From the NCBI RefSeq assembly GCF_054482595.1, contig NZ_CM137008.1: a stretch of DNA of 64,000 nt, one strand, 5' to 3'. The notes beneath the pieces are model-generated. The model saw only the letters and a program-made list of their open reading frames with translations, was not told the DNA's origin and did not search any database. The translations under genes were made by a program, and so were the position numbers. Shown in pieces: positions 1 through 62,310 of the stretch (position 1 is its first letter; each line of letters begins with the position of its first letter).

Positions 1-2940
1 GGAGGCGTGTTAGTCGATGAGAACAATAGCGCAGCAGGCTATGGAGATGGTCCTTCCTCTGCGGCGGGTGGCTTTATGTATCTCGGCTTAAGTGAAGTTA
101 CCTTTGATATTGCCGACGGAAAAACGCTGGTTATTGGCAATACAGAGAATGACGGAGCTGTTGACTCTATTGCTGGTACCGGGTTAATCACCAAAACAGG
201 TTCCGGCGATCTGGTACTTAATGCAGATAACAATGACTTTACTGGTGAGATGCAGATTGAAAACGGTGAAGTTATCCTGGGCCGCAGCAACTCCCTGATG
301 AATGTCGGCGATACTCATTGCCAGGACGATCCGCAAGACTGCTACGGTCTGACGATAGGGAGTATTGATAAGTACCAGAATCAGGCAGAGCTAAATGTTG
401 GCTCCACCCAACAAACTTTTGTGCACTCATTGACGGGCTTTCAGAATGGTACTTTAAATATCGATGCTGGTGGCAATGTTACTGTTAATGAAGGCAGTTT
501 TGCTGGCACCATCGAAGGTGCTGGTCAGCTCACCATTGCGCAAAACGGCAGCTATGTGCTGGCGGGAGCGTCGTCGATGGCGCTAACCGGCGATATAGTG
601 GTGGATGCTGGTGCGGTGCTTTCGCTGGAAGGCGACGCGGCAGATCTTGCCGCTCTCCAGGACGATCCGCAGTCGATCGTTTTAAACGGCGGTGTGCTCG
701 ATCTCTCTGATTTCTCCACCTGGCAGAGCGGTACATCATACAAAGATGGCCTTGAAGTCAGCGGCAGCAGCGGAACGGTTATCGGCAGTCAGGATGTGGT
801 AGATCTTGCAGGCGGAAACGATATGCATATCGGCGGTGACGGGAAAGATGGCGTCTACGTGGTGATCGATGCGGGTGACGGGCAGGTCCGCCTGGCAAAT
901 GACAATCAATACCTCGGCACAACGCAAATCGCCTCCGGTACGCTGATGGTGAGCGACAACTCGCAGCTTGGAGATACCCATTACAACCGCCAGGTTATCT
1001 TTACCGATAATCAACAAGAAAGCGTGATGGAGATTACTGCCAATGTCGATACTCGCTCTACAACGACTGAGCATGGGCGTGATATTGAAATGCGCGCCGA
1101 CGGTGAAGTGGCAGTTGATGCGGGGGTAGACACGCAGTGGGGCGCACTGATGGCTGACAGCAGCGGGCAACATCAGGATGAGGGTAGCACATTGACGAAA
1201 ACGGGGGCGGGTACACTGGAGCTGACCGCCAGCGGTACAACGCAGTCAGCGGTGAGAGTAGAAGAGGGCACGCTGCAAGGTGATGTTGCGGATATCTTCC
1301 CTTATGCTTCGTCGCTATGGGTCGGTGACGGGGCAACGTTCGTTACTGGCGCGGATCAGGATATTCAGTCAATTGATGCTACTTCCAGCGGCACTATCGA
1401 CATCAGCAATGGTACGGTTTTGCGCCTGACCGGGCAGGATACTTCCGTCGACCTTGATGCCTCACTGTTTAACGGCGATGGTACGCTGGTGAATGCCACC
1501 GATGGCGTGACATTGACAGGTGAGCTTAATACCAACCTTGAAACTGACAGCCTGACTTATCTTTCCGACGTAACAGTTAATGGCAATCTGACCAATACGA
1601 CCGGTGCGGTCAGCCTGCAAAATGGCGTCGCTGGCGATACGCTGACGGTAAACGGTGATTACACCGGCGGCGGTACGTTACTGTTCGACAGCGAATTAAA
1701 CGGCGATGACTCAGCAAGCGACCAGTTGGTGTTGAACGGTAATACTGCTGGCAACACAACTGTGGTGGTTAACTCCATTACAGGGATTGGTGAGCCGACA
1801 TCGACAGGCATTAAAGTGGTTGATTTCGCAGCTGATCCCACGCAGTTTCAAAACAATGCGCAGTTCAGTCTGGCAGGCAGCGGCTACGTCAACATGGGAG
1901 CGTATGACTACACGCTGGTGGAAGATAACAACGACTGGTATCTGCGATCGCAAGAAGTAACGCCGCCATCGCCACCTGATCCAGACCCGGACCCAACCCC
2001 CGATCCTGACCCAACACCCGATCCAATCCCCGCTTACCAGCCGGTGTTGAATGCCAAAGTTGGCGGTTATCTCAATAACCTGCGGGCGGCAAATCAGGCG
2101 TTTATGATGGAGCGACGCGATCACGCTGGTGGCGATGGTCAGACGCTGAATTTACGTGTTATCGGCGGAGATTATCATTACACAGCGGCAGGGCAACTGG
2201 CTCAGCATGAAGACACTTCTACGGTGCAGCTTAGCGGTGACCTGTTTAGGGGGCGCTGGGGCACGGATGGCGAGTGGATGCTTGGGATTGTTGGTGGCTA
2301 CAGCGATAACCAGGGCGACAGCCGCTCGAGTATGACCGGAACTCGCGCCGATAACCAGAACCACGGTTATGCCGTTGGGCTAACCTCAAGCTGGTTTCAG
2401 CACGGTAATCAGAAGCAGGGGGCCTGGCTGGATAACTGGTTGCAGTACGCGTGGTTTAGCAATGATGTTTCTGAACATGAAGATGGCGTGGATCATTACC
2501 ATTCGTCGGGGATTATCGCCTCGCTGGAAGCGGGGTATCAGTGGTTACCGGGGCGTGGTGTGGTGATTGAACCGCAGGCGCAGGTGATTTATCAGGGCGT
2601 GCAGCAGGATGATTTTACCGCCGCTAACCGTGCGCGCGTGTCACAATCGCAGGGTGATGATATTCAGACGCGGCTGGGTTTACACAGCGAATGGCGTACC
2701 GCTGTTCATGTCATACCAACATTAGATCTGAATTATTATCACGATCCCCATTCGACGGAAATTGAAGAGGATGGCAGCACTATCAGTGACGATGCGGTGA
2801 AGCAACGGGGTGAAATAAAAGTGGGAGTCACGGGCAATATCAGTCAGCGAGTGTCCCTGCGCGGCAGCGTGGCGTGGCAGAAAGGGAGTGATGATTTTGC
2901 CCAGACGGCAGGGTTTTTGTCGATGACGGTGAAATGGTAA
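1..2940 (+). CDS. yfaL: AIDA-type autotransporter adhesin YfaL, C-terminal ~977 aa (5' end outside window)
   Basis: Long ORF in frame from window start; Gly/Thr/Asn-rich passenger repeats, PDPDPTPDPDP linker, C-terminal beta-barrel-like domain ending in W; synteny next to ubiG/gyrA. Confidence 0.85.
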   Translation, partial: GGVLVDENNSAAGYGDGPSSAAGGFMYLGLSEVTFDIADGKTLVIGNTENDGAVDSIAGTGLITKTGSGDLVLNADNNDFTGEMQIENGEVILGRSNSLMNVGDTHCQDDPQDCYGLTIGSIDKYQNQAELNVGSTQQTFVHSLTGFQNGTLNIDAGGNVTVNEGSFAGTIEGAGQLTIAQNGSYVLAGASSMALTGDIVVDAGAVLSLEGDAADLAALQDDPQSIVLNGGVLDLSDFSTWQSGTSYKDGLEVSGSSGTVIGSQDVVDLAGGNDMHIGGDGKDGVYVVIDAGDGQVRLANDNQYLGTTQIASGTLMVSDNSQLGDTHYNRQVIFTDNQQESVMEITANVDTRSTTTEHGRDIEMRADGEVAVDAGVDTQWGALMADSSGQHQDEGSTLTKTGAGTLELTASGTTQSAVRVEEGTLQGDVADIFPYASSLWVGDGATFVTGADQDIQSIDATSSGTIDISNGTVLRLTGQDTSVDLDASLFNGDGTLVNATDGVTLTGELNTNLETDSLTYLSDVTVNGNLTNTTGAVSLQNGVAGDTLTVNGDYTGGGTLLFDSELNGDDSASDQLVLNGNTAGNTTVVVNSITGIGEPTSTGIKVVDFAADPTQFQNNAQFSLAGSGYVNMGAYDYTLVEDNNDWYLRSQEVTPPSPPDPDPDPTPDPDPTPDPIPAYQPVLNAKVGGYLNNLRAANQAFMMERRDHAGGDGQTLNLRVIGGDYHYTAAGQLAQHEDTSTVQLSGDLFRGRWGTDGEWMLGIVGGYSDNQGDSRSSMTGTRADNQNHGYAVGLTSSWFQHGNQKQGAWLDNWLQYAWFSNDVSEHEDGVDHYHSSGIIASLEAGYQWLPGRGVVIEPQAQVIYQGVQQDDFTAANRARVSQSQGDDIQTRLGLHSEWRTAVHVIPTLDLNYYHDPHSTEIEEDGSTISDDAVKQRGEIKVGVTGNISQRVSLRGSVAWQKGSDDFAQTAGFLSMTVKW

Positions 2941-2949
2941 TCGCTGTCT

Positions 2950-3075
2950 GACCATCACTATTGCCGGATGCGGCGTAAACGCCTTATCTGGCCTACGGAG
3001 AGCATTTGTAGGCCTGATAAGACGCGGCAAGCGTCGCATCAGGCATTGGCGCGGTTGCCGGATGAATCCAAACAA
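2950..3075. repeat. REP/BIME palindromic units (GCCGGATGCGGCGTAAACGCCTTATC-type)
   Basis: Characteristic REP consensus read in the yfaL-ubiG intergenic. Confidence 0.8.
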
Positions 3076-3080
3076 CAACC

Positions 3081-3803
3081 TCACTTATTCTGCGTGTGCA
3101 GCATATAGTTCACATCCACGCCGGGGCCGAGTTTAAAAGTATTAGTGATCGGGTTGTAATGTAGCCCGGTTATATGTCGCTCTTTAAGGCTTGTCTGATC
3201 TACCCAGCCAAGCAGCTCTGCCGGTTTAATAAACTTCTTCACATCATGCGTGCCTTTGGGCACCATGCGCAAAATATATTCCGCGCCAACCACCGCCATC
3301 AGCCATGACTTGCCGTTGCGGTTAAGCGTCGAGAAAAAGACATCGCCGCCCGGTTTCACCAGTTGCGCACAGGCTCTGACCACTGACTGCGGATCAGGGA
3401 CGTGCTCCAGCATCTCCATGCAGGTCACCACATCATACTGCCCGGCATGTTTTGCCGCGTGCTCTTCCACGGTTTCCTGCACGTAATCCACCTGAATGCC
3501 GCTTTCCAGCGCGTGCAGCTTTGCCACCTGCAATGGCTCAAAGCCCATATCCAGACCGGTCACCGTCGCGCCTTCGCGCGCCATACTCTCGGCCAGAATG
3601 CCGCCGCCACAACCGACATCGAGCACCTTTTTGCCAAATAAACCGCCAGCACGCTCGGCAATATAGCCCAGACGCAGCGGGTTAATGCGGTGCAGCGGTT
3701 TGAACTCACCTTCCAGATCCCACCAGCGGGAGGCGACGGCTTCAAATTTAGCGATCTCTTCGTGGTCTACGTTATGGTTTACCGGCGATTTTTCGGCATT
3801 CAT
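3081..3803 (-). CDS. ubiG: Ubiquinone biosynthesis O-methyltransferase UbiG (240 aa from MNAEKSP)
   Basis: Translation matches UbiG, SAM-binding VLDVGCGGG motif; ORF-track N-terminal extension trimmed to MNAEK start. Confidence 0.93.
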
Positions 3804-3949
3804 TGGCACTTCTACTCCGTAATTGGCAAGACAAACGAGTATATCAGGCATTGGATGTGAATAAAGCGTATAGGTTTACCTCAATCTGCGCGGCTGTGTT
3901 ATAATTTGCGACCTTTGAATCCGGGATACAGTAGAGGGATAGCGGTTAG

Positions 3950-6577
3950 ATGAGCGACCTTGCGAGAGAAATTACACCGGTCAACATTGAGGAAGAGCTG
4001 AAGAGCTCCTATCTGGATTATGCGATGTCGGTCATTGTTGGCCGTGCGCTGCCAGATGTCCGAGATGGCCTGAAGCCGGTACACCGTCGCGTACTTTACG
4101 CCATGAACGTACTAGGCAATGACTGGAACAAAGCCTATAAAAAATCTGCCCGTGTCGTTGGTGACGTAATCGGTAAATACCATCCCCATGGTGACTTGGC
4201 GGTTTATAACACGATCGTCCGTATGGCGCAGCCATTCTCGCTGCGTTACATGCTGGTAGACGGTCAGGGTAACTTCGGTTCCATCGACGGCGACTCTGCG
4301 GCGGCAATGCGTTATACGGAAATCCGTCTGGCGAAAATTGCCCATGAACTGATGGCCGATCTCGAAAAAGAGACGGTCGATTTCGTTGATAACTATGACG
4401 GCACGGAAAAAATTCCCGACGTCATGCCAACCAAAATTCCTAACCTGCTGGTGAACGGTTCTTCCGGTATCGCCGTAGGTATGGCAACCAACATCCCGCC
4501 GCACAACCTGACGGAAGTCATCAATGGTTGTCTGGCGTATATCGATGATGAGGACATCAGCATTGAAGGGCTGATGGAACACATTCCGGGGCCAGATTTC
4601 CCGACGGCGGCAATCATCAACGGTCGTCGCGGTATCGAAGAAGCTTACCGTACCGGTCGCGGCAAGGTATATATCCGCGCCCGTGCTGAAGTGGAAGTTG
4701 ACGCCAAAACCGGACGTGAAACCATTATCGTCCACGAAATTCCGTATCAGGTGAACAAAGCGCGCCTGATCGAGAAGATTGCGGAACTGGTAAAAGAAAA
4801 ACGCGTGGAAGGCATCAGCGCGCTGCGTGACGAGTCTGACAAAGACGGTATGCGCATCGTGATTGAAGTGAAACGCGATGCGGTCGGTGAAGTGGTACTC
4901 AACAACCTCTACTCCCAGACCCAGTTGCAGGTTTCCTTCGGTATCAACATGGTGGCATTGCACCATGGTCAGCCGAAGATCATGAACCTGAAAGACATCA
5001 TCGCTGCGTTTGTTCGTCACCGCCGCGAAGTAGTGACCCGTCGTACTATTTTCGAACTGCGTAAAGCTCGCGACCGTGCGCATATCCTTGAAGCATTAGC
5101 CGTGGCGCTGGCGAACATCGACCCGATCATCGAACTGATCCGTCATGCGCCTACGCCTGCAGAAGCGAAAACCGCGCTGGTTGCTAATCCGTGGCAGCTG
5201 GGCAACGTTGCCGCGATGCTGGAACGTGCTGGCGACGATGCTGCGCGTCCGGAATGGCTGGAGCCAGAGTTCGGCGTGCGTGATGGTCTGTACTACCTGA
5301 CCGAACAGCAAGCTCAGGCGATTCTGGATCTGCGTTTGCAGAAACTGACCGGCCTTGAGCACGAAAAACTGCTCGACGAATACAAAGAGCTGCTGGATCA
5401 GATCGCGGAACTGTTGCGTATTCTTGGTAGCGCCGATCGTCTGATGGAAGTGATCCGTGAAGAGCTGGAGCTAGTTCGTGAACAGTTCGGTGACAAACGT
5501 CGTACTGAAATCACCGCCAACAGCGCAGACATCAACCTGGAAGATCTGATCACCCAGGAAGATGTGGTCGTGACGCTCTCTCACCAGGGCTACGTTAAAT
5601 ATCAGCCGCTTTCTGAATACGAAGCGCAGCGTCGTGGCGGGAAAGGTAAATCTGCCGCACGTATTAAAGAAGAAGACTTTATCGACCGACTGCTGGTGGC
5701 GAACACGCACGACCATATTCTGTGCTTCTCCAGCCGTGGTCGCGTCTATTCGATGAAAGTTTACCAGTTGCCGGAGGCCACTCGTGGCGCGCGCGGTCGT
5801 CCGATCGTCAACCTGCTGCCGCTGGAGCAGGACGAACGTATCACCGCGATCCTGCCGGTGACCGAGTTTGAAGAAGGAGTGAAAGTCTTCATGGCGACCG
5901 CTAACGGTACTGTGAAGAAAACCGTCCTCACCGAATTCAACCGTCTGCGTACCGCCGGTAAAGTGGCGATCAAACTGGTTGACGGCGATGAGCTGATCGG
6001 CGTTGATCTGACCAGTGGCGAAGATGAAGTAATGCTGTTCTCCGCCGAAGGTAAAGTGGTGCGCTTTAAAGAGTCTTCCGTCCGTGCGATGGGCTGCAAC
6101 ACCACCGGTGTGCGCGGTATCCGTTTAGGCGAAGGCGATAAAGTGGTCTCTCTGATCGTGCCTCGTGGCGATGGCGCAATCCTCACCGCAACGCAGAACG
6201 GTTATGGTAAACGTACCGCAGTGGCGGAATACCCAACCAAGTCGCGTGCGACGAAAGGGGTTATCTCCATCAAGGTTACCGAACGTAACGGTTTAGTGGT
6301 TGGCGCGGTGCAGGTAGATGACTGCGACCAGATCATGATGATCACCGATGCCGGTACGCTGGTACGTACTCGCGTTTCGGAAATCAGCATCGTGGGCCGT
6401 AACACCCAGGGCGTGATCCTCATCCGTACTGCGGAAGATGAAAACGTAGTGGGTCTGCAACGTGTTGCTGAACCGGTTGACGAGGAAGATCTGGATACCA
6501 TCGACGGCAGTGCCGCGGAAGGGGACGATGAAATCGCTCCGGAAGTGGACGTTGACGACGAGCCAGAAGAAGAATAA
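3950..6577 (+). CDS. gyrA: DNA gyrase subunit A
   Basis: 875 aa; N-terminal [51 protein letters not shown] region, acidic C-terminal tail. Confidence 0.98.
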
Positions 6578-6594
6578 TTTTACTTCTTCATGCC

Positions 6595-6619
6595 AAAAGG
6601 GAGCTATCTCCCTTGTTTG
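6595..6619 (+). terminator. Rho-independent terminator after gyrA
   Basis: GGGAG-CTAT-CTCCC hairpin followed by TTGTTTG. Confidence 0.6.
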
Positions 6620-6725
6620 AATTGAAAAGTCCAGGCTGCAAAGTCTGGGCTTTTGTCGTATTAGGGCGCGGTAAAGTTTGGCTGTGCCCGTAAAAAATGG
6701 CTGGCTATACACAAGGAATGTGGCA

Positions 6726-13572
<6,847 letters not shown>

Positions 13573-48236: not shown

Positions 48237-48285
48237 TGGTCGGCACGAGAGGATTTGAACCTCCGACCCCCGACACCCCATGACG
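48237..48285 (-). other. Prophage attachment core: 3'-terminal ~49 nt of tRNA-Pro (proL-type), not a complete tRNA
   Basis: Minus strand reads CGTCATGGGGTGTCGGGGGTCGGAGGTTCAAATCCTCTCGTGCCGACCA (anticodon-stem to CCA end) but the expected 5' half (CGGCACG acceptor arm) is absent; sequence diverges into AT-rich phage DNA. Confidence 0.8.
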
Positions 48286-48654
48286 CCGCTTGAAAAATGC
48301 TGAGAACCGCGCAATCGCTGGTGGTAGGTACTATTCGCATGTATAAACAAACAGTGCTTTTTTAGCAAAATCCGTTCTATATACATCAATGACTTAGGTG
48401 GTGGTTTCTCCCCATGCCACAAGTAGTGTTGAGCTTTACTGAAGCCACTCCATTGGCCTCTACATGGAAACTAACAAGAAAATGTCAGTTGAAGGAGTTT
48501 TATAAATTCATGTTTTCTTCTTCAGGACAACCCATCACCCGCAGGCACCGCCTGCGGGAATTTTGCGACTGTGTTCGTTTTAAATTATAGATGCATCACC
48601 TGATATTCGTGACATACAAACTATGCATTAGCCAGATCTATACTGGATAAGTAT

Positions 48655-50406
48655 TCATTCTAATGCCTTCTCAATGTTTGTATTTATTTCTGATAAACTA
48701 TTAATTACACCGTCAAATACAAAATCAAGAGCGTTACTATAACCAATTGCTAAAGTAGCTGAATCAAATCCTAGTTTTGCTAAATGCTCAATTGATTTGT
48801 TTACTGCTTCATGAGCTTCAGCATTTCTTAAATCATTATTTATAAAAAACGATGCCACTTTTTTATTTTGAGTTTTAAAATCTGCAAATTCTGTGGCGTG
48901 CTTAAGTACAGATGAGTCTTCATTCTGTTCAATAATTGGCTCGATAAGGTTAAGTAATGATTGAAGTAGTTTCAGAGTTTGGAATTTTTCGATGTCTGAT
49001 TTATTAACACCCATTGCAATTAATAATTTTTTTAAAGAGCCTGATTTAATCTTATTTAAAATCTCATTAATAGTCTTACATCTATTCAAAAAATCCGGTT
49101 CTTGCATGTCATTTGGCGCAACAAATGCTAGCTTCTGCAATACTGGATAGTTAGAGATTCCTTCTGATTCTAACTCTGTGCGATTAATTTCTAAAATGTC
49201 TGCATTGGATAAAGTAACACCAATACTTCTACCAAGTGCTACAAGATTATCGCTAAGTCTTGCTAGTTCTCTAGCGAATTTAAATGTTTTAGATACAATA
49301 TGTTCTCCGCTTAAATCATTTTCAGTGATTTGGTTTGGATCCTTAGCATAATCAAAAACATGATAAACCTCCTCTTCAGGAATTCCTCGATACAGCTCAT
49401 AAAACGGAATTCTGACTAAGTTTCTTCCAACCCTGATGCAATCCCTAAAGGACCATTGTCCACCGTAGCTTGGAGCAACCCTATAAGAATAGCCGTCATA
49501 AAATGGAATAGCATCATATGAAGAATCTTTTTCATATTTAGTAAGGAAAGAGTCATTAACCAAGACATATTCATTGTTTCTGATGTCTTTGGCTCTTGAA
49601 CTCGTCATAGGAGTATCATATCCCGGCCATATTAATTCATCTATATTTAATTTTTTACAAAGTTCAGGCTGAACAGATTGTACACTTCCCCATGCTTGCA
49701 ATAATATATTGTCCCCATTATCTACTATCTCAAAATCTATCCAAGGCAAATCAAACTTGAAATGTTTTGACCCAGACAATAAGTTAATTACTTCCGTCGT
49801 TCTTTGAATACGTGCTTCATAGTAAAAAACACGTACACCAACATAATTTCTCATCCAGAGGTATTTTCTTAGATAATCATTACGCATTGTCCATTTTACA
49901 TCTTTATTACTTCTAAAGTAATACTCGCTTGACACATCCCCTTGTGCGACTCCATAATCGGGCAAGCTTACCTCATCGAAAATGACTTTTTGCTCAGTGT
50001 CACCTATAAGTCTGGGTTTTAGACCAAGCATCATCCATACATCTTCAGCTAAAAAAAATGAAAAGTGAGAACTATCACCCCAAGAAGCTACAATATACTT
50101 ATAACCTGAAATTGATAAACTATAATCTCTTGCTCCGCCTTTAGACCTACAGTCAGGAGTCGAAAATGAAACTAAACCATTAGTAGACTCCTGGAGAACT
50201 TTGATATTATTGATATCTTCTTGTGGTACGGTAGCCATTGTCATATGAGCACACTCATGATTATCTTTAAAAAGATTTTTTTCGTATCTATGTGTGACAA
50301 TGACCTCTTTCTGTGGATTAGTAATATCCTCTATAGATAATAAATCTTTAAGACCTTGAGGGATCTGATCTACTGGTAAAGGTAATTGTGATATATAGTC
50401 AATCAT
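48655..50406 (-). CDS. Hypothetical 583-aa cargo protein (no TM, no recognised NTPase motif), C-terminal Rx4H (HEPN-like) motif; candidate defence/abortive-infection gene
   Basis: Long clean ORF, visibly AT-rich, own ~320-bp AT-rich upstream region, located between att core and int. Confidence 0.7.
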   Translation of the reverse strand: MIDYISQLPLPVDQIPQGLKDLLSIEDITNPQKEVIVTHRYEKNLFKDNHECAHMTMATVPQEDINNIKVLQESTNGLVSFSTPDCRSKGGARDYSLSISGYKYIVASWGDSSHFSFFLAEDVWMMLGLKPRLIGDTEQKVIFDEVSLPDYGVAQGDVSSEYYFRSNKDVKWTMRNDYLRKYLWMRNYVGVRVFYYEARIQRTTEVINLLSGSKHFKFDLPWIDFEIVDNGDNILLQAWGSVQSVQPELCKKLNIDELIWPGYDTPMTSSRAKDIRNNEYVLVNDSFLTKYEKDSSYDAIPFYDGYSYRVAPSYGGQWSFRDCIRVGRNLVRIPFYELYRGIPEEEVYHVFDYAKDPNQITENDLSGEHIVSKTFKFARELARLSDNLVALGRSIGVTLSNADILEINRTELESEGISNYPVLQKLAFVAPNDMQEPDFLNRCKTINEILNKIKSGSLKKLLIAMGVNKSDIEKFQTLKLLQSLLNLIEPIIEQNEDSSVLKHATEFADFKTQNKKVASFFINNDLRNAEAHEAVNKSIEHLAKLGFDSATLAIGYSNALDFVFDGVINSLSEINTNIEKALE

Positions 50407-50728
50407 TATAATTTATGCCTTCTATGCTCAGTATTAAATTAAATATTAAATCGAAGTCATCCCCTTGGCAACCTAAATCGTTTGCTGCTAGTACTTCAGT
50501 GTAAGATTAATTATGCAATAGTTTGCAATTGAAATATCTTAAGCTGTAGAAAAATCAATCATACTGATACCTTTTACTTAAGTTTCACTCCTAGGCATGA
50601 TGAACGCTTCCTCAAGATACAGTATTACGCTATGCCTGCAACTTTCACTTGTGGCATAGTAAACCTTTCAATTTAGGTTTAGCCCTGTATAGTAGTAATG
50701 CACGCTTCAAATCTGAGCTAATAAAATT

Positions 50729-51913
50729 TTAACTGGCTTTAATTTCTCCATGTGGTACGACAACCCAATCAATATGGTTTTGCGTATAAATCTTGGTTGA
50801 CTTGGAGTCGCTGTGCGCCATTCGTGCTTGCGGATCGATACCTTGCTGATCGAAAAGATACGCTGCTAATGCTCTAATTTCGTGAAAGGTTGGTCTTTCA
50901 TCTATCGGTAGATTGTCGCATAAACCTAGCTTGTCACGTGTGGCTGAAAACGACCGGCTCAAATAGTCCGGTGCAACTTGAGTAGGGTGTGAAACCTCTT
51001 TGCTGCGTTTAACCTGCCGTTCAGGGATCCTGTGAACGACAAACGGACTGGCCACATTATCTCGGCTATCATCAATTATTCGTTTCAACTCTTCACCAAT
51101 CGGTATTGCAACGTGTGATGCCTCTTTTTTTTGCACTTTTTGCCTGTGGATGTAAAGCGTCCCATATATGCCATTTTGTGGTTGTTCGAACCAGACACAT
51201 CCACATATACCGTCTTTAGGTTCGCGAATTGAGTAACGGATTCGCGATACTTCGAGTCGTGCATGTGTAGTCTGCAATGCTAGGTCCATTGCTGTTCTTA
51301 ACCATGGTGCAGCGGCCTGCCTGATAGCTATAAAATGCTCGAGTGACAGGCGCCGTCTTTTCTTCTCATCAGTCCTACGCATTTTTTTTCTGATGGCCGG
51401 GTTATCCAGCATTAGTGATTCATCGACCGCATAAGAGAACAACTTTTTAAGGAAGCTGACCTTTCTGTTCTGCACATTTGCGGATGCGCAGGCATGATAT
51501 TTATTGATGTAGGTATTAACGTGTTCAAGTGCAATATCGCATGCTGGAACATTTACGAAAAACGCTTTTACGCGTAGAGCGTCATTTTTCCAGTCATCTA
51601 AGGTGCTCTGGGAAGGACGTTCGTCTTCGATAATCCGGGTCATTATGTGATCAACATGTTCAGCAAATGGTTTTGCTTCTCCGATAACACCGCCAGATTC
51701 TCTAATAAGATTATCTACTGATGGAGATAATTCTGGTCGCATCCTCAGGTTGTACTCTCTGGCGATTGCAATGGCTATTGCCCTATCCTTACCTATATTT
51801 TTCTTCTTTCCGGTAATAAGTGTGAATTTATAAACACCTCGATCTTTATCAAAAATCAGATAATCAGGAAGATGTCTGTATTCTTTTTTACGTGGCCTTG
51901 CCGCCATGGTCAC
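50729..51913 (-). CDS. int: Phage integrase, tyrosine recombinase
   Basis: 394 aa; C-terminal catalytic region with HEIRALAAYL (HxxR) and STKIYTQ (Tyr); overlaps xis. Confidence 0.92.
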   Translation of the reverse strand: MTMAARPRKKEYRHLPDYLIFDKDRGVYKFTLITGKKKNIGKDRAIAIAIAREYNLRMRPELSPSVDNLIRESGGVIGEAKPFAEHVDHIMTRIIEDERPSQSTLDDWKNDALRVKAFFVNVPACDIALEHVNTYINKYHACASANVQNRKVSFLKKLFSYAVDESLMLDNPAIRKKMRRTDEKKRRRLSLEHFIAIRQAAAPWLRTAMDLALQTTHARLEVSRIRYSIREPKDGICGCVWFEQPQNGIYGTLYIHRQKVQKKEASHVAIPIGEELKRIIDDSRDNVASPFVVHRIPERQVKRSKEVSHPTQVAPDYLSRSFSATRDKLGLCDNLPIDERPTFHEIRALAAYLFDQQGIDPQARMAHSDSKSTKIYTQNHIDWVVVPHGEIKAS

Positions 51914-52119
51914 CCCTCATTTATTAACTTGCGAACAGCTTGACTAACCATTGAGTCGACTCCCCATTTTTCTGTTTCGCAGACAAAAACAGAACCGTCC
52001 ACGATGCGTCCCATGAGTAGACCGTTCTCGACCCAACGTTTTATCGTTCGGTTGTCAGGAATTGAGCCATTAGAGAATTCACGGCGTCCCCATTGGCTCG
52101 CTTTCATTAGTTTTGCCAT
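51910..52119 (-). CDS. xis: Excisionase (Xis-like)
   Basis: Small ORF overlapping int start by 4 nt; ...RTIKRWVENG... winged-helix excisionase motif; start at MAKLMK chosen (ORF-track start 52164 possible). Confidence 0.75.
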   Translation of the reverse strand: MAKLMKASQWGRREFSNGSIPDNRTIKRWVENGLLMGRIVDGSVFVCETEKWGVDSMVSQAVRKLINEG

Positions 52120-52180
52120 GGCTGTTTCTCCACTTAGCCCGCTGCACACGGGTAGTAATATCAAATTCCAGTCCTGATAA

Positions 52181-53017: not shown

Positions 53018-53512
53018 ATGACCAGAGACGATTATAAATTTTATATTCACTACTCTTATGTATTGGAGAAGATGAATTACACGTTGTTAACTCGTATTGA
53101 TAAATTAATAACGTTGATGTTAATCGTTCTCGGTTTTTCAGTTTTCGCCCCGTACAGTAATTTATTTATTTTCGGTTTGTTTGTTGCCGTACTTTCGGTT
53201 CTTCAGTTGGTCTATCAGTTCGGCCAGGAGGCTGGGATGTCTAAAGAACAAGCGAGGCATTACAAAAGACTGCTGATTGAGTCTGATACTCTTTCTGAAG
53301 ATCAGTTGCAAGCTAGGTATTTAAAAATCCAAGATACCGATAGTAATCCATGGAAATCACTTGAACGAGCGGCTTTCATTCGGGCCTGCATTTTTGCTGG
53401 TGTTCCAACTAAGTACGATCTAACAACCAAAGAAAAATTTATTGCTTGGTGTGCGGGAGATCTACCTCTAGAGAATGAACTAACGGATATTAATGATGAC
53501 CAACAAGCATAA
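53018..53512 (+). CDS. Small membrane protein with two N-terminal TM helices; SieB-like position (superinfection exclusion candidate)
   Basis: 164 aa, AT-rich, hydrophobic segments LITLMLIVLGFSVFAPY and LFIFGLFVAVLSVLQLVY; sits between early-left region and cI on opposite strand. Confidence 0.65.
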   Translation: MTRDDYKFYIHYSYVLEKMNYTLLTRIDKLITLMLIVLGFSVFAPYSNLFIFGLFVAVLSVLQLVYQFGQEAGMSKEQARHYKRLLIESDTLSEDQLQARYLKIQDTDSNPWKSLERAAFIRACIFAGVPTKYDLTTKEKFIAWCAGDLPLENELTDINDDQQA

Positions 53513-60090: not shown

Positions 60091-60109
60091 GACGGCCATA
60101 TTGGCCGTC
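60091..60109. terminator. Palindromic hairpin GACGGCC-ATATT-GGCCGTC between convergent Q and the antisense cassette
   Basis: Perfect 7-bp inverted repeat overlapping the cassette stop codon; no strong U-run. Confidence 0.4.
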
Positions 60110-61295
60110 AGCTAAATAAATATGTAATAGCATAAGGTGTAAGTAAAAAGTAGAATCTAAATGTAAGATATAAGCCACATAAAACTATAATTCCTAATGA
60201 GGCAAAAACAACTTTCTGAACAAGCAATCTTGTGGTTAAACTATCAAATGTATCCTTTATATCTTCGTAAATAGCCTTGAAGTTATATTCTGCTTGTTGT
60301 TTTTTATGATTTAACTCATCATTTATTGCTGTTAAAGTTTGCCATTGATTAAATAGAACAAATATAATCATAATAGTGAAGAACAATGCACCCAACACTA
60401 CAGCTGTGTTTATTAATGCTTGACTATCCCAACCATTAGCCTGCTTCATTTGAGTCGCAACGATAATTGTTGCGACGGGGATACCTAATATCTGATTTTG
60501 TATGTCACTGAATACTTTATGTATTTTCCCCATCTCTTCTATTTTGGCTACTCGTAACTGATCTAGTATTTTCTCGTAAGAAAAACCAGAAACGAATACT
60601 TTGTATCCTTTTTGATAACTTTCATAAAGTTGTCCTAAATCCCTTAACATGAAGGAAAAAGAGGTTTCTTTAGTTTTAGATTCACATGATGATTTTATAC
60701 TACTTGCTAAAATAGTAAGTTTTTGATCTTTATGCGTATCTTCTGCAAAGTTTGCGATCAAATTATGAATCAGATCTCCATTAACATTCATAAGATCATC
60801 GCTAGAATAATTTACTGGAATTTTTAGTACGTTGGATTCGACGAATACCAATTCAAAATTTGTTTCATCTAAATAAGCAGAACAATCTTTGAATAAAGTA
60901 ATTAAGCTCAAAACATCTCTGTACTTGGATATAATAGCAGGCGACTTTTTATCCCTGTTGTGATAATTAAGTTCGATTATAAAGAAGTTACTGGCTTCCT
61001 TTATCCTATTTTTAGGATTTTTTAAATACTCATTAAAAGAGAAATGTAGCTGCCCCAATCGTAATTTGGGGGGGGTTATATGTAAGGTTATAGTTTGGCC
61101 TAACTCAATGTTGCCAGATTCAAGGGTGATGCCAAAATCATGGGGATTCTCTGTGATATCGTTGATGATGTCACAGAGCTCCTCGTTTGAAAGAATGAGT
61201 GATGCTTCAGATAGGGTACCTGCAAATGTAGCGGCCTTGTAAATAGTCACTAAGTCTTTGAAGGTTCTCTGGTTTTTACTGCTCATCCTCTTCAC
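60108..61295 (-). CDS. Hypothetical 395-aa protein with two C-terminal TM helices; downstream gene of antisense two-gene moron
   Basis: Clean AT-rich ORF; hydrophobic segments ALINTAVVLGALFFTIMIIFVLF and VVFASLGIIVLCGLYLTFRFYFLL; overlaps upstream gene by 20 nt. Confidence 0.75.
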   Translation of the reverse strand: MKRMSSKNQRTFKDLVTIYKAATFAGTLSEASLILSNEELCDIINDITENPHDFGITLESGNIELGQTITLHITPPKLRLGQLHFSFNEYLKNPKNRIKEASNFFIIELNYHNRDKKSPAIISKYRDVLSLITLFKDCSAYLDETNFELVFVESNVLKIPVNYSSDDLMNVNGDLIHNLIANFAEDTHKDQKLTILASSIKSSCESKTKETSFSFMLRDLGQLYESYQKGYKVFVSGFSYEKILDQLRVAKIEEMGKIHKVFSDIQNQILGIPVATIIVATQMKQANGWDSQALINTAVVLGALFFTIMIIFVLFNQWQTLTAINDELNHKKQQAEYNFKAIYEDIKDTFDSLTTRLLVQKVVFASLGIIVLCGLYLTFRFYFLLTPYAITYLFS

Positions 61296-62310
61296 CTAAT
61301 TCTGATAAAATCTCTGATCTTAGCGTATCCGGAATCTCGGTAAGTATCAATTTATCGTTTTCTGAATCATAAAGAACGCTGCCATCATGCAAGGCCGCAC
61401 GCTCGAATTTCAGAGACCAATGTTTGGACTTTCCTTTGAAACTAACAAGCCCACGTATAACGTTGCCATCAGGCACGAACCCATCAGAGAACTCCAGATC
61501 GTCATTGGTTAACTTTTCAACTAACAACTCAGGAGCAGTTGGCCATATCTCGTTTGCAAAAATTTGAGTGTCGAAAGTTTCACCAGAACGATTTAAATTT
61601 TTTAATTTTTCATGAGCCTTATTTAGGAACTCTTCACGTGCCTCTGGTTCAAAACCTCTTTCAGTAGCAAATTCTAAAAGTGCATTCCGTAATTTTGTTG
61701 TTTCTTGTTTGGCAATTAGAATATCGTTGCAACCTAAAAACTTTTTGAAATAACCTGCTACTGAATTTTGCCCCTTTAGAAAGCTAATATATCTCTCTTT
61801 GCCATTCTGGCGCCCAGTTAAGTCAATTCGTCCCGCTACTCGAAGTTTAGCAATGTCTAGATATTCACTTTCTTGAATTTCAAAATCGTGGACTGAAGAG
61901 CCAACTGCTGAAGTTAGGATTGCAACCATCAAATAATGATTTCCATTTACCTCATTATGGGCAATTATTACATAACCACCAGTAGACATTGATTCATCAT
62001 CGGCTCTGGCTTTTAAATGATTGATCATTCGGATACTAGTATCATAAAAACTATGTGTTTTATTTACGAAATAATCATCAACGATATTACCCATAGGGTA
62101 ACTATCGCGGTCATCTTCAAATTTCCCATATCCTTTACCTGCTCTCCCAGAGTACCTTTCAGTAAGTGCGTTAGAGAGGTCTTTTGATGCTTGCTGAACA
62201 GGTTTTTCTGAAGGACAAGGAATAATGGTGGCTAACCCCTGTTGTTCCTTGTTCATAATGTGAACAATAAACTTATGAGTGATATTAGTGGGGGTCGCTG
62301 ATGCAGTCAT
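61276..62310 (-). CDS. Divergent NdpA/YejK-family (NA37) nucleoid-associated-like protein, prophage-encoded
   Basis: 344 aa; blocks GGYVIIAHNEV..YLMVAIL, GRIDLTGRQNGKERYISFLKGQ..VAGYFKKFLG parallel host YejK ([51 protein letters not shown]); RBS AGGA upstream. Confidence 0.75.
   Translation of the reverse strand: MTASATPTNITHKFIVHIMNKEQQGLATIIPCPSEKPVQQASKDLSNALTERYSGRAGKGYGKFEDDRDSYPMGNIVDDYFVNKTHSFYDTSIRMINHLKARADDESMSTGGYVIIAHNEVNGNHYLMVAILTSAVGSSVHDFEIQESEYLDIAKLRVAGRIDLTGRQNGKERYISFLKGQNSVAGYFKKFLGCNDILIAKQETTKLRNALLEFATERGFEPEAREEFLNKAHEKLKNLNRSGETFDTQIFANEIWPTAPELLVEKLTNDDLEFSDGFVPDGNVIRGLVSFKGKSKHWSLKFERAALHDGSVLYDSENDKLILTEIPDTLRSEILSELGEEDEQ

What the first reader, a model, noticed from the sequence alone, without database searches (positions are those of the whole stretch)
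48655..50406. AT-rich 583-aa orphan gene between the att core and integrase; C-terminal Rx4H motif suggests possible HEPN-type RNase
The att-to-int interval is a classic cargo/defence hotspot in tRNA-integrated elements. The ORF has its own long AT-rich upstream region and no TM helix or Walker motif. It contains DLRNAEAHEA (R-x4-H) near the C-terminus, the minimal HEPN catalytic signature found in Abi and toxin RNases. The motif is short and could occur by chance.
Basis: partly seen in the sequence, partly recalled or inferred. Interest (0 to 1): 0.65.

Follow-up and report, generated by a model that had tools for sequence, protein, structure and literature searches.

The report
Prophage cargo: candidate HEPN antiphage protein
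The gene is real but not an orphan: it belongs to a large uncharacterised family (published only as the 'quorum-quenching lactonase' BpiB05) that looks like a one-protein anti-phage system, with an Avs3-like sensor part fused to a probable HEPN RNase.

Summary
The ORF (48655-50406, minus strand, 583 aa, ~34% GC) lies between the tRNA-Pro att core (48237-48282) and the prophage integrase, as described. It is not an orphan. Hundreds of full-length homologues (~585 aa) occur in Gamma-, Beta- and Alphaproteobacteria and beyond. None matches Pfam, PADLOC, NCBIfam or PHROGs.

The R-x4-H is not chance. R527 and H532 are two of nine invariant residues across 83 sequences down to ~20% identity, and the motif is present in 358 of 362 members.

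The gene stands alone, with no conserved neighbour. It sits in mobile elements and defence hotspots, beside Gabija, DRT, AbiTii and NsnA. Two depositors named family members after BpiB05, a reported AHL lactonase; that reading fits the contexts poorly.

Most likely it is a single-protein abortive-infection system with a sensor and a HEPN-type nuclease. No experiment supports this yet.

The parts
48655..50406 (-). Complete ORF, 583 aa plus stop. It is a stand-alone member of a ~585-aa protein family, referred to here as the BpiB05-like family.
   Evidence: ORF list. Identical or near-identical gene annotated 'hypothetical protein' WP_192954900.1 in E. coli 50EVA and LP50-1. Family shown.
50107..50406 (-). 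Residues 1-100: the least conserved segment, a beta-hairpin plus loops. It is largely unalignable in the distant clade.
   Evidence: Column conservation is 0.34, against 0.41-0.51 elsewhere. Profile matches to the distant clade start at about position 100. Secondary structure.
49324..50106 (-). Residues 101-361: beta-rich region and putative sensor/regulatory module. It contains the invariant residues L129, W260, D285, L288, W318 and R325, and the nearly invariant E292 and R328. This is the part that resembles SeAvs3.
48658..49323 (-). Residues 362-583: all-helical C-terminal domain and putative HEPN-type nuclease effector. It contains the invariant R442, R527 and H532, and the nearly invariant D561 and D565.
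48811..48828 (-). R527-N-A-E-A-H532, the R-x4-H motif.
   Evidence: Translation. R and H invariant in 83/83 sequences. Motif present in 358/362 members.
50407..50728 (-). AT-rich spacer of 322 bp upstream of the ORF, presumed to hold its own promoter. A weak sigma-70-like match lies at 50471-50442.
   Evidence: Composition. The promoter scan found no more sites than shuffled sequence gives, so this is not evidence of function.
48237..48282 (-). att core: the 3'-terminal ~46 nt of tRNA-Pro, at the left prophage junction next to the yejO terminator.
   Evidence: Sequence. Unique in the window. Identical in three lysogens up to this point, after which they diverge. tRNA-Pro is annotated at the same place in strain GZM7. 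ARAGORN finds no complete tRNA.
50729..51913 (-). Prophage tyrosine integrase with an Arm-DNA-binding N-terminus. The xis-like ORF at 51910-52164 follows.
   Evidence: ORF list. RefSeq annotation of the identical gene. Weak recombinase NCBIfam hits. The gene order int - ORF583 - yejO holds in all six places shown for the exact protein.

Best explanation
The ORF encodes a self-contained, single-protein anti-phage (abortive-infection type) system carried as cargo in the att-int slot of a lambdoid prophage.

Shown:
- It belongs to a large, horizontally mobile family with a fixed two-part architecture.
- It has no conserved partner gene.
- It sits in defence hotspots and mobile elements.
- Its C-terminal helical domain carries an invariant R-x4-H.
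- Its N-terminal beta-rich region resembles part of the phage-protein sensor SeAvs3.

Inferred:
- The N-terminal region holds the protein inactive until it binds an infection cue, most plausibly a conserved phage protein.
- Binding then changes the conformation or oligomeric state so that two C-terminal domains pair their R527/H532 motifs into a HEPN-type, metal-independent RNase site.
- The RNase cleaves host and/or phage RNA (tRNA, rRNA or mRNA) and stops phage production.
- The prophage benefits by excluding competing phages.
For: Family and constraint:
- There are 333-736 clusters and 428 representatives at 50% identity, nearly all 575-600 aa.
- R527 and H532 are 2 of 9 invariant residues in 83 sequences. 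The motif is present in 358/362 members.

Structure:
- The AF2 models are confident: pLDDT 90.6 for the full length and 94.0 for the C-terminal domain.

Context:
- No neighbour is conserved within +/-3 kb in 14 loci.
- Immediate neighbours include Gabija GajA/GajB plus type I R-M on an ICE, DRT UG17 RT plus SLATT plus an AbiZ-like protein, AbiTii plus HipBA plus Fic, and an NsnA/PD-T4-2-like protein in the P2 gpA-portal slot.
- Other copies are a reverse-strand gene inside a prophage structural module beside a PIN gene, cargo at the end of a P4/PICI-like satellite, and plasmid-borne.
- The same att-int slot holds unrelated cargo in related prophages.
- The exact allele is always int-linked, while the prophage interior varies.

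Precedents:
- Avs sensor domains are reused without STAND NTPases, including in a HEPN-like protein (bioRxiv 10.64898/2026.01.04.697583).
Against: - No HEPN or defence HMM matches any member in Pfam, NCBIfam, PADLOC v2 or PHROGs.
- The tools did not show residue-level superpositions. Neither the equivalence of R527/H532 to catalytic HEPN residues nor the SeAvs3 region matched was seen directly.
- The nearly invariant D561 and D565 near the motif could indicate metal-dependent chemistry, which is not typical of HEPN.
- The only published work on a family member (BpiB05) reports AHL hydrolysis, not defence.
- There is no match in 50,697 deposited phage genomes.
- No experiment has been done.
Confidence: 0.5

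Rival explanations
1. It is a defence or toxin protein, but the C-terminal domain is not a HEPN RNase. The invariant R442/R527/H532 and the nearly invariant D561/D565 would form a different active or binding site, for example a metal-dependent hydrolase or phosphodiesterase, or a nucleotide-binding site. Alternatively the effector is the conserved 251-361 segment (W260, D285, E292, W318, R325, R328).
For: - The defence-type contexts are the same as for the main explanation.
- The most conserved stretch of the protein is 251-361, not the helical domain.
- D561 and D565 are nearly invariant.
Against: - The spacing and invariance of R-x4-H in an all-helical domain are what define catalytic HEPN domains.
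- No alternative enzyme fold was detected for either part.
Confidence: 0.2
2. It is a quorum-quenching enzyme of the BpiB05 type: a hydrolase that opens the lactone ring of N-acyl-homoserine lactones, carried by mobile elements to interfere with neighbours' signalling.
For: - Two independent depositors named family members after BpiB05: Pectobacterium parmentieri AFI89596.1, and Paraburkholderia fungorum AJZ56144.1 'putative bpiB05' with UniRef name 'BpiB05'.
- The Paraburkholderia protein has exactly BpiB05's published length of 587 aa. It is 38% identical to this ORF over the full length, E 5e-158.
- BpiB05 (ABU51109.1) is reported to degrade 3-oxo-C8-HSL and to reduce motility, pyocyanin and biofilm in P. 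aeruginosa (reviews PMC3355433, PMC3794736, PMC4942472).
Against: - The BpiB05 sequence itself could not be retrieved, so homology rests on annotation transfer and length. The primary paper is not held.
- No lactonase signature is present: HxHxDH occurs in 0/362 members, GxSxG is not conserved, and there is no dienelactone-hydrolase or other hydrolase Pfam hit despite the reviews' classification.
- The structural relatives are an antiviral sensor and HEPN-like bundles, not hydrolase folds.
- The genomic contexts are defence islands and phage hotspots, not signalling or catabolic loci.
- By inference, the pleiotropic phenotypes on heterologous expression could also arise from a leaky toxin.
Confidence: 0.1
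3. It is a prophage accessory gene with a non-defence role, such as lysogenic conversion, regulation of the host or prophage, or an addiction/stabilisation toxin. The resemblance to Avs3 and HEPN would then be a fold-level coincidence.
For: - Moron-like features: low GC, its own AT-rich upstream region, and a position at the prophage end.
- No validated defence HMM hit.
- Some loci have antitoxin-like neighbours: MazE-like in L017 and MNT-like in L015.
Against: - The family is as common on ICEs, plasmids and chromosomal islands as in prophages, and it repeatedly abuts verified defence genes.
- No antitoxin-like neighbour recurs.
- Strict conservation of the two-domain architecture across phyla argues for an autonomous function.
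Confidence: 0.1

Closest known systems
BpiB05 (ABU51109.1), a soil-metagenome 'AHL lactonase' (Bijtenhoorn et al. 2011, J Biotechnol 155:86)
   Same: Probably the same protein family. Family members in Pectobacterium and Paraburkholderia are named after it. The Paraburkholderia protein has the identical length of 587 aa and is 38% identical to this ORF end to end. [quoted passage not shown]
   Different: The published function, lactone hydrolysis and quorum quenching, has no support in the fold, the motifs or the genomic context found here. Direct sequence comparison with ABU51109.1 was not possible.
HepS, the Gifsy-1 prophage 'HEPN solo' abortive-infection protein (Sargen et al., Nature 2026, PMC13043305)
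   Different: HepS is 218 aa and consists of the HEPN domain alone, sensing the tail-tip protein J with it. This protein is 583 aa with a separate ~360-aa beta-rich N-terminal region. No sequence similarity was detected, and no PADLOC or Pfam hit.
Avs3/Avs2 antiviral STAND NTPases, which sense the phage large terminase (Gao et al. 2022; Evans et al. 2026, bioRxiv 10.64898/2026.04.30.721860)
   Different: This protein has no STAND NTPase, no TPR array and no Cap4 nuclease. The effector is C-terminal and HEPN-like rather than an N-terminal DNase. Which SeAvs3 residues align was not visible. The sensor assignment is by elimination: no Cap4, P-loop or TPR structures appear among the hits.
Non-STAND proteins that reuse Avs sensor domains: Dsr1 and a Streptomyces HEPN-like protein sharing the Avs7 capsid sensor (bioRxiv 10.64898/2026.01.04.697583)
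   Same: The architectural principle is the same: an Avs-type sensor fused directly to an effector, without the NTPase switch.
   Different: The sensor there is a different one, the bilobed helical Avs7/Dsr1 sensor that recognises the major capsid protein. No homology to it was tested or seen here.
HEPN toxins of HEPN-MNT (HepT/MntA) modules and other HEPN Abi proteins (AbiJ, AbiU2, AbiV, RnlA/LsoA)
   Different: There is no cognate antitoxin in general. There is no RX4HXY signature: residue 534 is not Y. The protein is much larger and has an extra N-terminal module. No HMM match.

Membership tests
HEPN superfamily (catalytic versions; Anantharaman et al. 2013) | All-alpha helical bundle domain | tested here: met
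   Residues 362-583 are modelled as 13 helices with no strands, pLDDT 94.0 and pTM 0.90.
HEPN superfamily (catalytic versions; Anantharaman et al. 2013) | Conserved R-x(4-6)-H motif | tested here: met
   R527 and H532 are invariant in 83/83 sequences down to ~20% identity. The motif is present in 358/362 full-length members.
HEPN superfamily (catalytic versions; Anantharaman et al. 2013) | Specific structural similarity to solved HEPN domains, with the motif at the equivalent position | tested here: inconclusive
HEPN superfamily (catalytic versions; Anantharaman et al. 2013) | Match to a HEPN sequence profile (Pfam, NCBIfam or PADLOC) | tested here: not met
   No HEPN family matched the query or any of 83 members. 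The only traces are a Cas13d HEPN-region hit (E 0.014) in one member and an MtlR hit (E 0.045) in another. An HH-type profile-profile search against Pfam/PDB was not available.
HEPN superfamily (catalytic versions; Anantharaman et al. 2013) | Metal-independent RNase activity from a dimeric composite active site | not testable with these tools
   This needs biochemistry or a multimer model.
BpiB05-type AHL hydrolase | Sequence homology to BpiB05 (ABU51109.1) | tested here: inconclusive
   The link is indirect. The query is 38% identical, E 5e-158, to the P. fungorum 'putative bpiB05' protein, which has the same 587-aa length as published for BpiB05. ABU51109.1 itself was not found in the clusters read.
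BpiB05-type AHL hydrolase | Recognisable hydrolase/lactonase fold or catalytic motif | tested here: not met
BpiB05-type AHL hydrolase | AHL-degrading activity | not testable with these tools
   Only secondary literature was readable. The primary paper is not held.
Avs (antiviral STAND NTPase) family | Central STAND NTPase with Walker A/B motifs | tested here: not met
Avs (antiviral STAND NTPase) family | Sensor domain structurally related to an Avs sensor | tested here: inconclusive
Catalogued anti-phage defence systems (PADLOC-DB v2.0.0) | HMM match to a catalogued system protein | tested here: not met
   Zero families matched the query and 9 of 10 distant members at E<=1.
Prophage att-int cargo (moron) gene | Located between the attachment core and the integrase, with atypical composition, in a slot whose content varies among related prophages | tested here: met
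   Position and GC. Four related lysogens carry unrelated genes in the slot. The ORF is in 2 of 5,426 genomes and the integrase in 108.

The most novel reading that the evidence does not exclude
The family is a STAND-less pattern-recognition immune protein. An Avs2/Avs3-type beta-rich sensor, which in Avs proteins binds the ATPase domain of the phage large terminase, is fused directly to a HEPN RNase. Binding of a conserved phage protein, possibly the terminase, would then switch on RNA cleavage without any NTPase oligomerisation switch. As a corollary, BpiB05, cited for 15 years as a novel class of quorum-quenching lactonase, is a misassigned member of an anti-phage family.
Probability: 0.2. 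Interest if true: 0.8.

Novelty: new variant of a known kind. Interest (0 to 1): 0.62.

Why it matters
- If confirmed, this adds a widespread single-gene defence family that current defence-finding catalogues miss. It spans hundreds of clusters in Gamma-, Beta- and Alphaproteobacteria and a distant clade, on prophages, satellites, ICEs and plasmids.
- It would show that an Avs3-like sensor module can work without the STAND NTPase, extending the idea that bacterial pattern-recognition sensors are shuffled between effectors.
- It would give a small (583 aa), tractable model for how a sensor gates a HEPN nuclease.
- It would prompt re-examination of BpiB05, which is widely listed as a distinct class of AHL lactonase.
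- For this genome, it identifies the att-int slot of the yejO/tRNA-Pro prophage as a defence-cargo slot.

Tried and rejected
- Sequence-profile identification failed. PADLOC, NCBIfam, PHROGs, Pfam (query plus 83 members) and PDB sequence searches with single sequences and profiles (A3, A4) gave only noise.
- Retrieval of BpiB05 (ABU51109.1) failed. I looked in ten 587-aa clusters, searched from a distant-clade member, and read the P0328 cluster. The accession was not seen. The primary paper and Schipper 2009 are not held.
- A literature search for family accessions found no papers. A search for HEPN plus terminase plus Avs3 found only the STAND survey.
- Upx, a terminase sensor with a PD-(D/E)xK nuclease, was considered as the identity and rejected. 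It is >1,100 aa, has a different effector, and is stated to lack structural homology to Avs.
- I tried to obtain the HepS sequence from Gifsy-1 (NC_010392) for a profile comparison. The LT2 Gifsy-1 record has no HepS-like gene, and the 200-aa candidate has no PDB match, so I abandoned this.
- A conserved partner gene (antitoxin or immunity) was searched for and not found.
- Rfam and tRNA scans of the region found nothing relevant.
- The promoter/terminator scan gave no more sites than shuffled sequence.
- There is no homologue in 50,697 deposited phage genomes.

Full report
**1. The observation**

Its GC content is 0.34-0.35, against 0.46-0.57 in the adjacent host genes ccmH, narP and yejO.

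To its left, just after the yejO terminator hairpin, lies the 3'-terminal part of a tRNA-Pro gene on the minus strand (48237-48285). Alignment with two related lysogens shows the shared core ends at about 48282, after which the arms diverge. ARAGORN finds no complete tRNA in the window, as expected for the displaced 3' fragment at one prophage junction. To the right lie a 322-bp AT-rich spacer, a tyrosine integrase (50729-51913), an xis-like ORF and lambdoid/e14-type regulators. So 'between the att core and the integrase' is correct.

The motif DLRNAEAH is present, with RNAEAH at nt 48811-48828. In a single sequence of this composition one R-x4-H is expected 0.42 times.

**2. Not an orphan**

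A search of 5.8 billion proteins gave 333 clusters from this query and 736 from a Paraburkholderia homologue. Almost all are full-length proteins of 575-600 aa, at 40-69% identity in the following genera:
- Enterobacter, Pectobacterium, Yersinia and Serratia;
- Vibrio, Shewanella, Ferrimonas and Pseudomonas;
- Burkholderia, Bordetella and Xanthomonas;
- Paracoccus, Sneathiella and Bradyrhizobium.

An exhaustive profile search of 1.84 billion representatives found 428 at E<=1e-3. These include a distant clade at ~20-25% identity with the same length, alignable from about residue 100 onward. None has a Pfam domain on record. The query and 83 members give no significant hit in Pfam, PADLOC, NCBIfam, PHROGs or PDB sequences.

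In E. coli the gene is rare. Only 2 of 5,426 complete genomes carry it, although 108 carry the associated integrase at >=80% query coverage. The exact protein is nevertheless listed in 191 blocks of the assembly index. In all six places shown its order is int - ORF - yejO - narP, while the prophage interior differs.

**3. What is conserved**

Across 83 sequences down to ~20% identity only nine positions are invariant: L129, W260, D285, L288, W318, R325, R442, R527 and H532. The pattern [LFIM]-R-x4-H occurs in the last 120 residues of 358 of 362 full-length members held. D561 and D565 on the last helix are nearly invariant. The motif is therefore under strong purifying selection. That is the real statistical support for it.

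**4. Structure**

AlphaFold2 on a 93-sequence alignment gives a confident model (pLDDT 90.6, pTM 0.75). It has a beta-rich N-terminal region (about residues 1-361) and an all-helical C-terminal domain (362-583). Modelled alone, the C-terminal domain reaches pLDDT 94.0 and pTM 0.90.

The HEPN assignment therefore rests on three things: an all-alpha domain, an invariant R-x4-H, and recurrent but weak structural hits. This is the same kind of evidence that first identified HepS. It is not proof.

**5. Which part of SeAvs3?**

The tool output does not list aligned residues. [quoted passage not shown] It shares the last with Avs2, and that part contacts the terminase ATPase domain.

**6. Genomic context**

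I compared 14 independent loci. No neighbouring ORF within +/-3 kb recurs, so the gene is autonomous. The settings are consistently mobile or defence-related:
- Enterobacter: the cargo end of a P4/PICI-like satellite with AlpA, Bro-N, a D5 primase and an integrase.
- Shewanella: beside a DRT UG17 reverse transcriptase plus SLATT (PADLOC E 4e-165 and 6e-56), an AbiZ-like protein and HNH genes.
- Pseudomonas: beside AbiTii (E 2e-45), HipBA and Fic.
- Paracoccus: a reverse-strand gene inside a prophage structural module, next to a PIN gene.
- Serratia: in a P2-like prophage between gpA and the portal gene, next to an NsnA/PD-T4-2-like protein (E 8e-75). From my own knowledge of Rousset et al. 2022, not from text read here, this slot corresponds to a P2 defence hotspot. 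The passages I read cover the P4 psu-int hotspot.
- Burkholderia pseudomallei: on an ICE, between type I R-M plus Gabija GajA/GajB (E 4e-70 and 1e-54) and a Schlafen/AlbA_2 gene.
- Pseudomonas aeruginosa: ICE cargo with zeta and HigB toxins.
- Paraburkholderia, Sphingomonas and other genera: on plasmids, near repA or integrases.

In the window's own slot, four related prophages at the same att site carry unrelated cargo:
- a 239-aa hypothetical protein;
- a 66-aa plus 283-aa pair;
- a DUF2971 protein with IS debris;
- an AAA ATPase pair plus a DUF4760 protein.

**7. The BpiB05 link**

A truncated Pectobacterium parmentieri member is deposited as 'BpiB05'. The Paraburkholderia fungorum plasmid member is deposited as 'putative bpiB05', and UniRef names it BpiB05. 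It is 587 aa, exactly the length tabulated for BpiB05. It is 38% identical to this ORF over the whole length, with E 5e-158.

BpiB05 (ABU51109.1) is a soil-metagenome protein. It is reported as a novel AHL lactonase that reduces motility, pyocyanin and biofilm in P. aeruginosa. I could not obtain its sequence or the primary paper, so family membership is very likely but indirect.

Nothing found here supports a lactonase:
- There is no HxHxDH motif (0/362) and no conserved GxSxG.
- There is no hydrolase profile or fold hit. Two reviews nevertheless file BpiB05 under 'dienelactone hydrolase'.
- The genomic contexts are typical of immunity genes.

By inference, a leaky RNase toxin expressed heterologously could produce the reported pleiotropic phenotypes. 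The reported in-vitro hydrolysis cannot be assessed here.

**8. Most likely mechanism**

I propose a single-polypeptide sensor-effector of the abortive-infection type. The N-terminal beta-rich region would keep the protein off and recognise an infection cue. That region comprises a variable first ~100 residues and a conserved 101-361 core with W260, D285, E292, W318, R325 and R328. Activation would bring the R527/H532 motifs of two C-terminal domains together into a HEPN RNase site, as in other HEPN enzymes, and RNA cleavage would halt the infection. By analogy with Avs3, a conserved phage protein such as the large terminase is a candidate trigger, but that step is speculative.

I estimate about 0.75 that the family is a defence or toxin system, about 0.5 that it is one with a HEPN-type nuclease effector, and about 0.2 for the Avs-like phage-protein-sensing version.

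**9. Comparison with known systems and novelty**

It works like HepS and other solo HEPN Abi proteins, and like Avs proteins in its sensor-effector logic. It is not a member of any catalogued family:
- It fails the HMM tests for every PADLOC, Pfam and NCBIfam family.
- It lacks the STAND NTPase that defines Avs.
- Its HEPN membership is met on motif and secondary structure, but is inconclusive on fold specificity and negative on profiles.

I rate it a new variant of a known kind: a prophage-borne single-protein nuclease defence with a new domain combination. It is of moderate-to-high interest because it is widespread, uncatalogued, and apparently misannotated in the literature.

Noticed in passing
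window 60108-62310 (minus strand): This is a second low-GC block (0.31-0.40) in the same prophage. Two overlapping ORFs (344 aa and 395 aa) weakly match NCBIfam DS1_1_antiphage (a YejK-like nucleoid-associated protein, E 2.8e-15; also YejK PRK00378, E 2.9e-48) and DS1_2_antiphage (E 1.5e-19). Both are far below the curated cut-offs, and there is no PADLOC hit. It is probably a diverged two-gene DS-1-type defence module.
   Followed up: partly
window 53018-53512 (plus strand): A 164-aa ORF at 38% GC, with a hydrophobic central segment (two putative membrane helices), lies between the xis region and the ymfK-like repressor. It has no PADLOC or NCBIfam hit. It is another moron-like gene of unknown function.
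   Followed up: partly
window 48283-48654: The 370-bp spacer between the att core and the ORF's stop codon holds a 26-aa ORF (48511-48591, plus strand; MFSSSGQPITRRHRLREFCDCVRFKL) preceded by AAGGAG. It also holds a GC-rich inverted repeat, CCCGCAGGCACCGCCTGCGGG, at about 48538-48560.
   Followed up: no
L001 (E. coli 50EVA) 1-5400: In strain 50EVA a second integrase-bearing island with four large hypothetical genes sits on the att side of the ORF. This is a tandem integration at the same site. In the window the ORF abuts yejO directly.
   Followed up: no
L012 3137-3214 (E. coli GZM7) versus window 48237-48285: PGAP annotates a full-length 78-nt tRNA-Pro at the left junction of a related lysogen, although only the 3' ~46 nt are shared with the window's junction. 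ARAGORN calls no tRNA in the window. The 5' half in GZM7 appears to be supplied by phage DNA.
   Followed up: partly
L015 9925-10245; L017 7542-7847; L002 7277-7783: Individual family members have toxin-antitoxin-flavoured neighbours on the same strand. L015 has an orphan MNT-type nucleotidyltransferase 200 bp downstream. L017 has a MazE-like gene about 150 bp upstream. L002 has a 168-aa MtlR-like (HEPN-fold) gene about 220 bp upstream. None recurs across loci.
   Followed up: partly
L019 (Burkholderia glumae plasmid) 6001-7698; Pectobacterium parmentieri SCC3193 (P0284, P0285): Some copies are broken. The B. glumae copy matches in four pieces and is not annotated as one CDS. The SCC3193 copy is split into 459-aa and 124-aa ORFs. 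This is consistent with a gene that is costly or dispensable.
   Followed up: no
L014 (E. coli isolate 362) 807-4107: In this related prophage the same att-int slot carries an AAA-family ATPase plus a small ORF, and a DUF4760 protein. These look like other candidate defence cargo.
   Followed up: no
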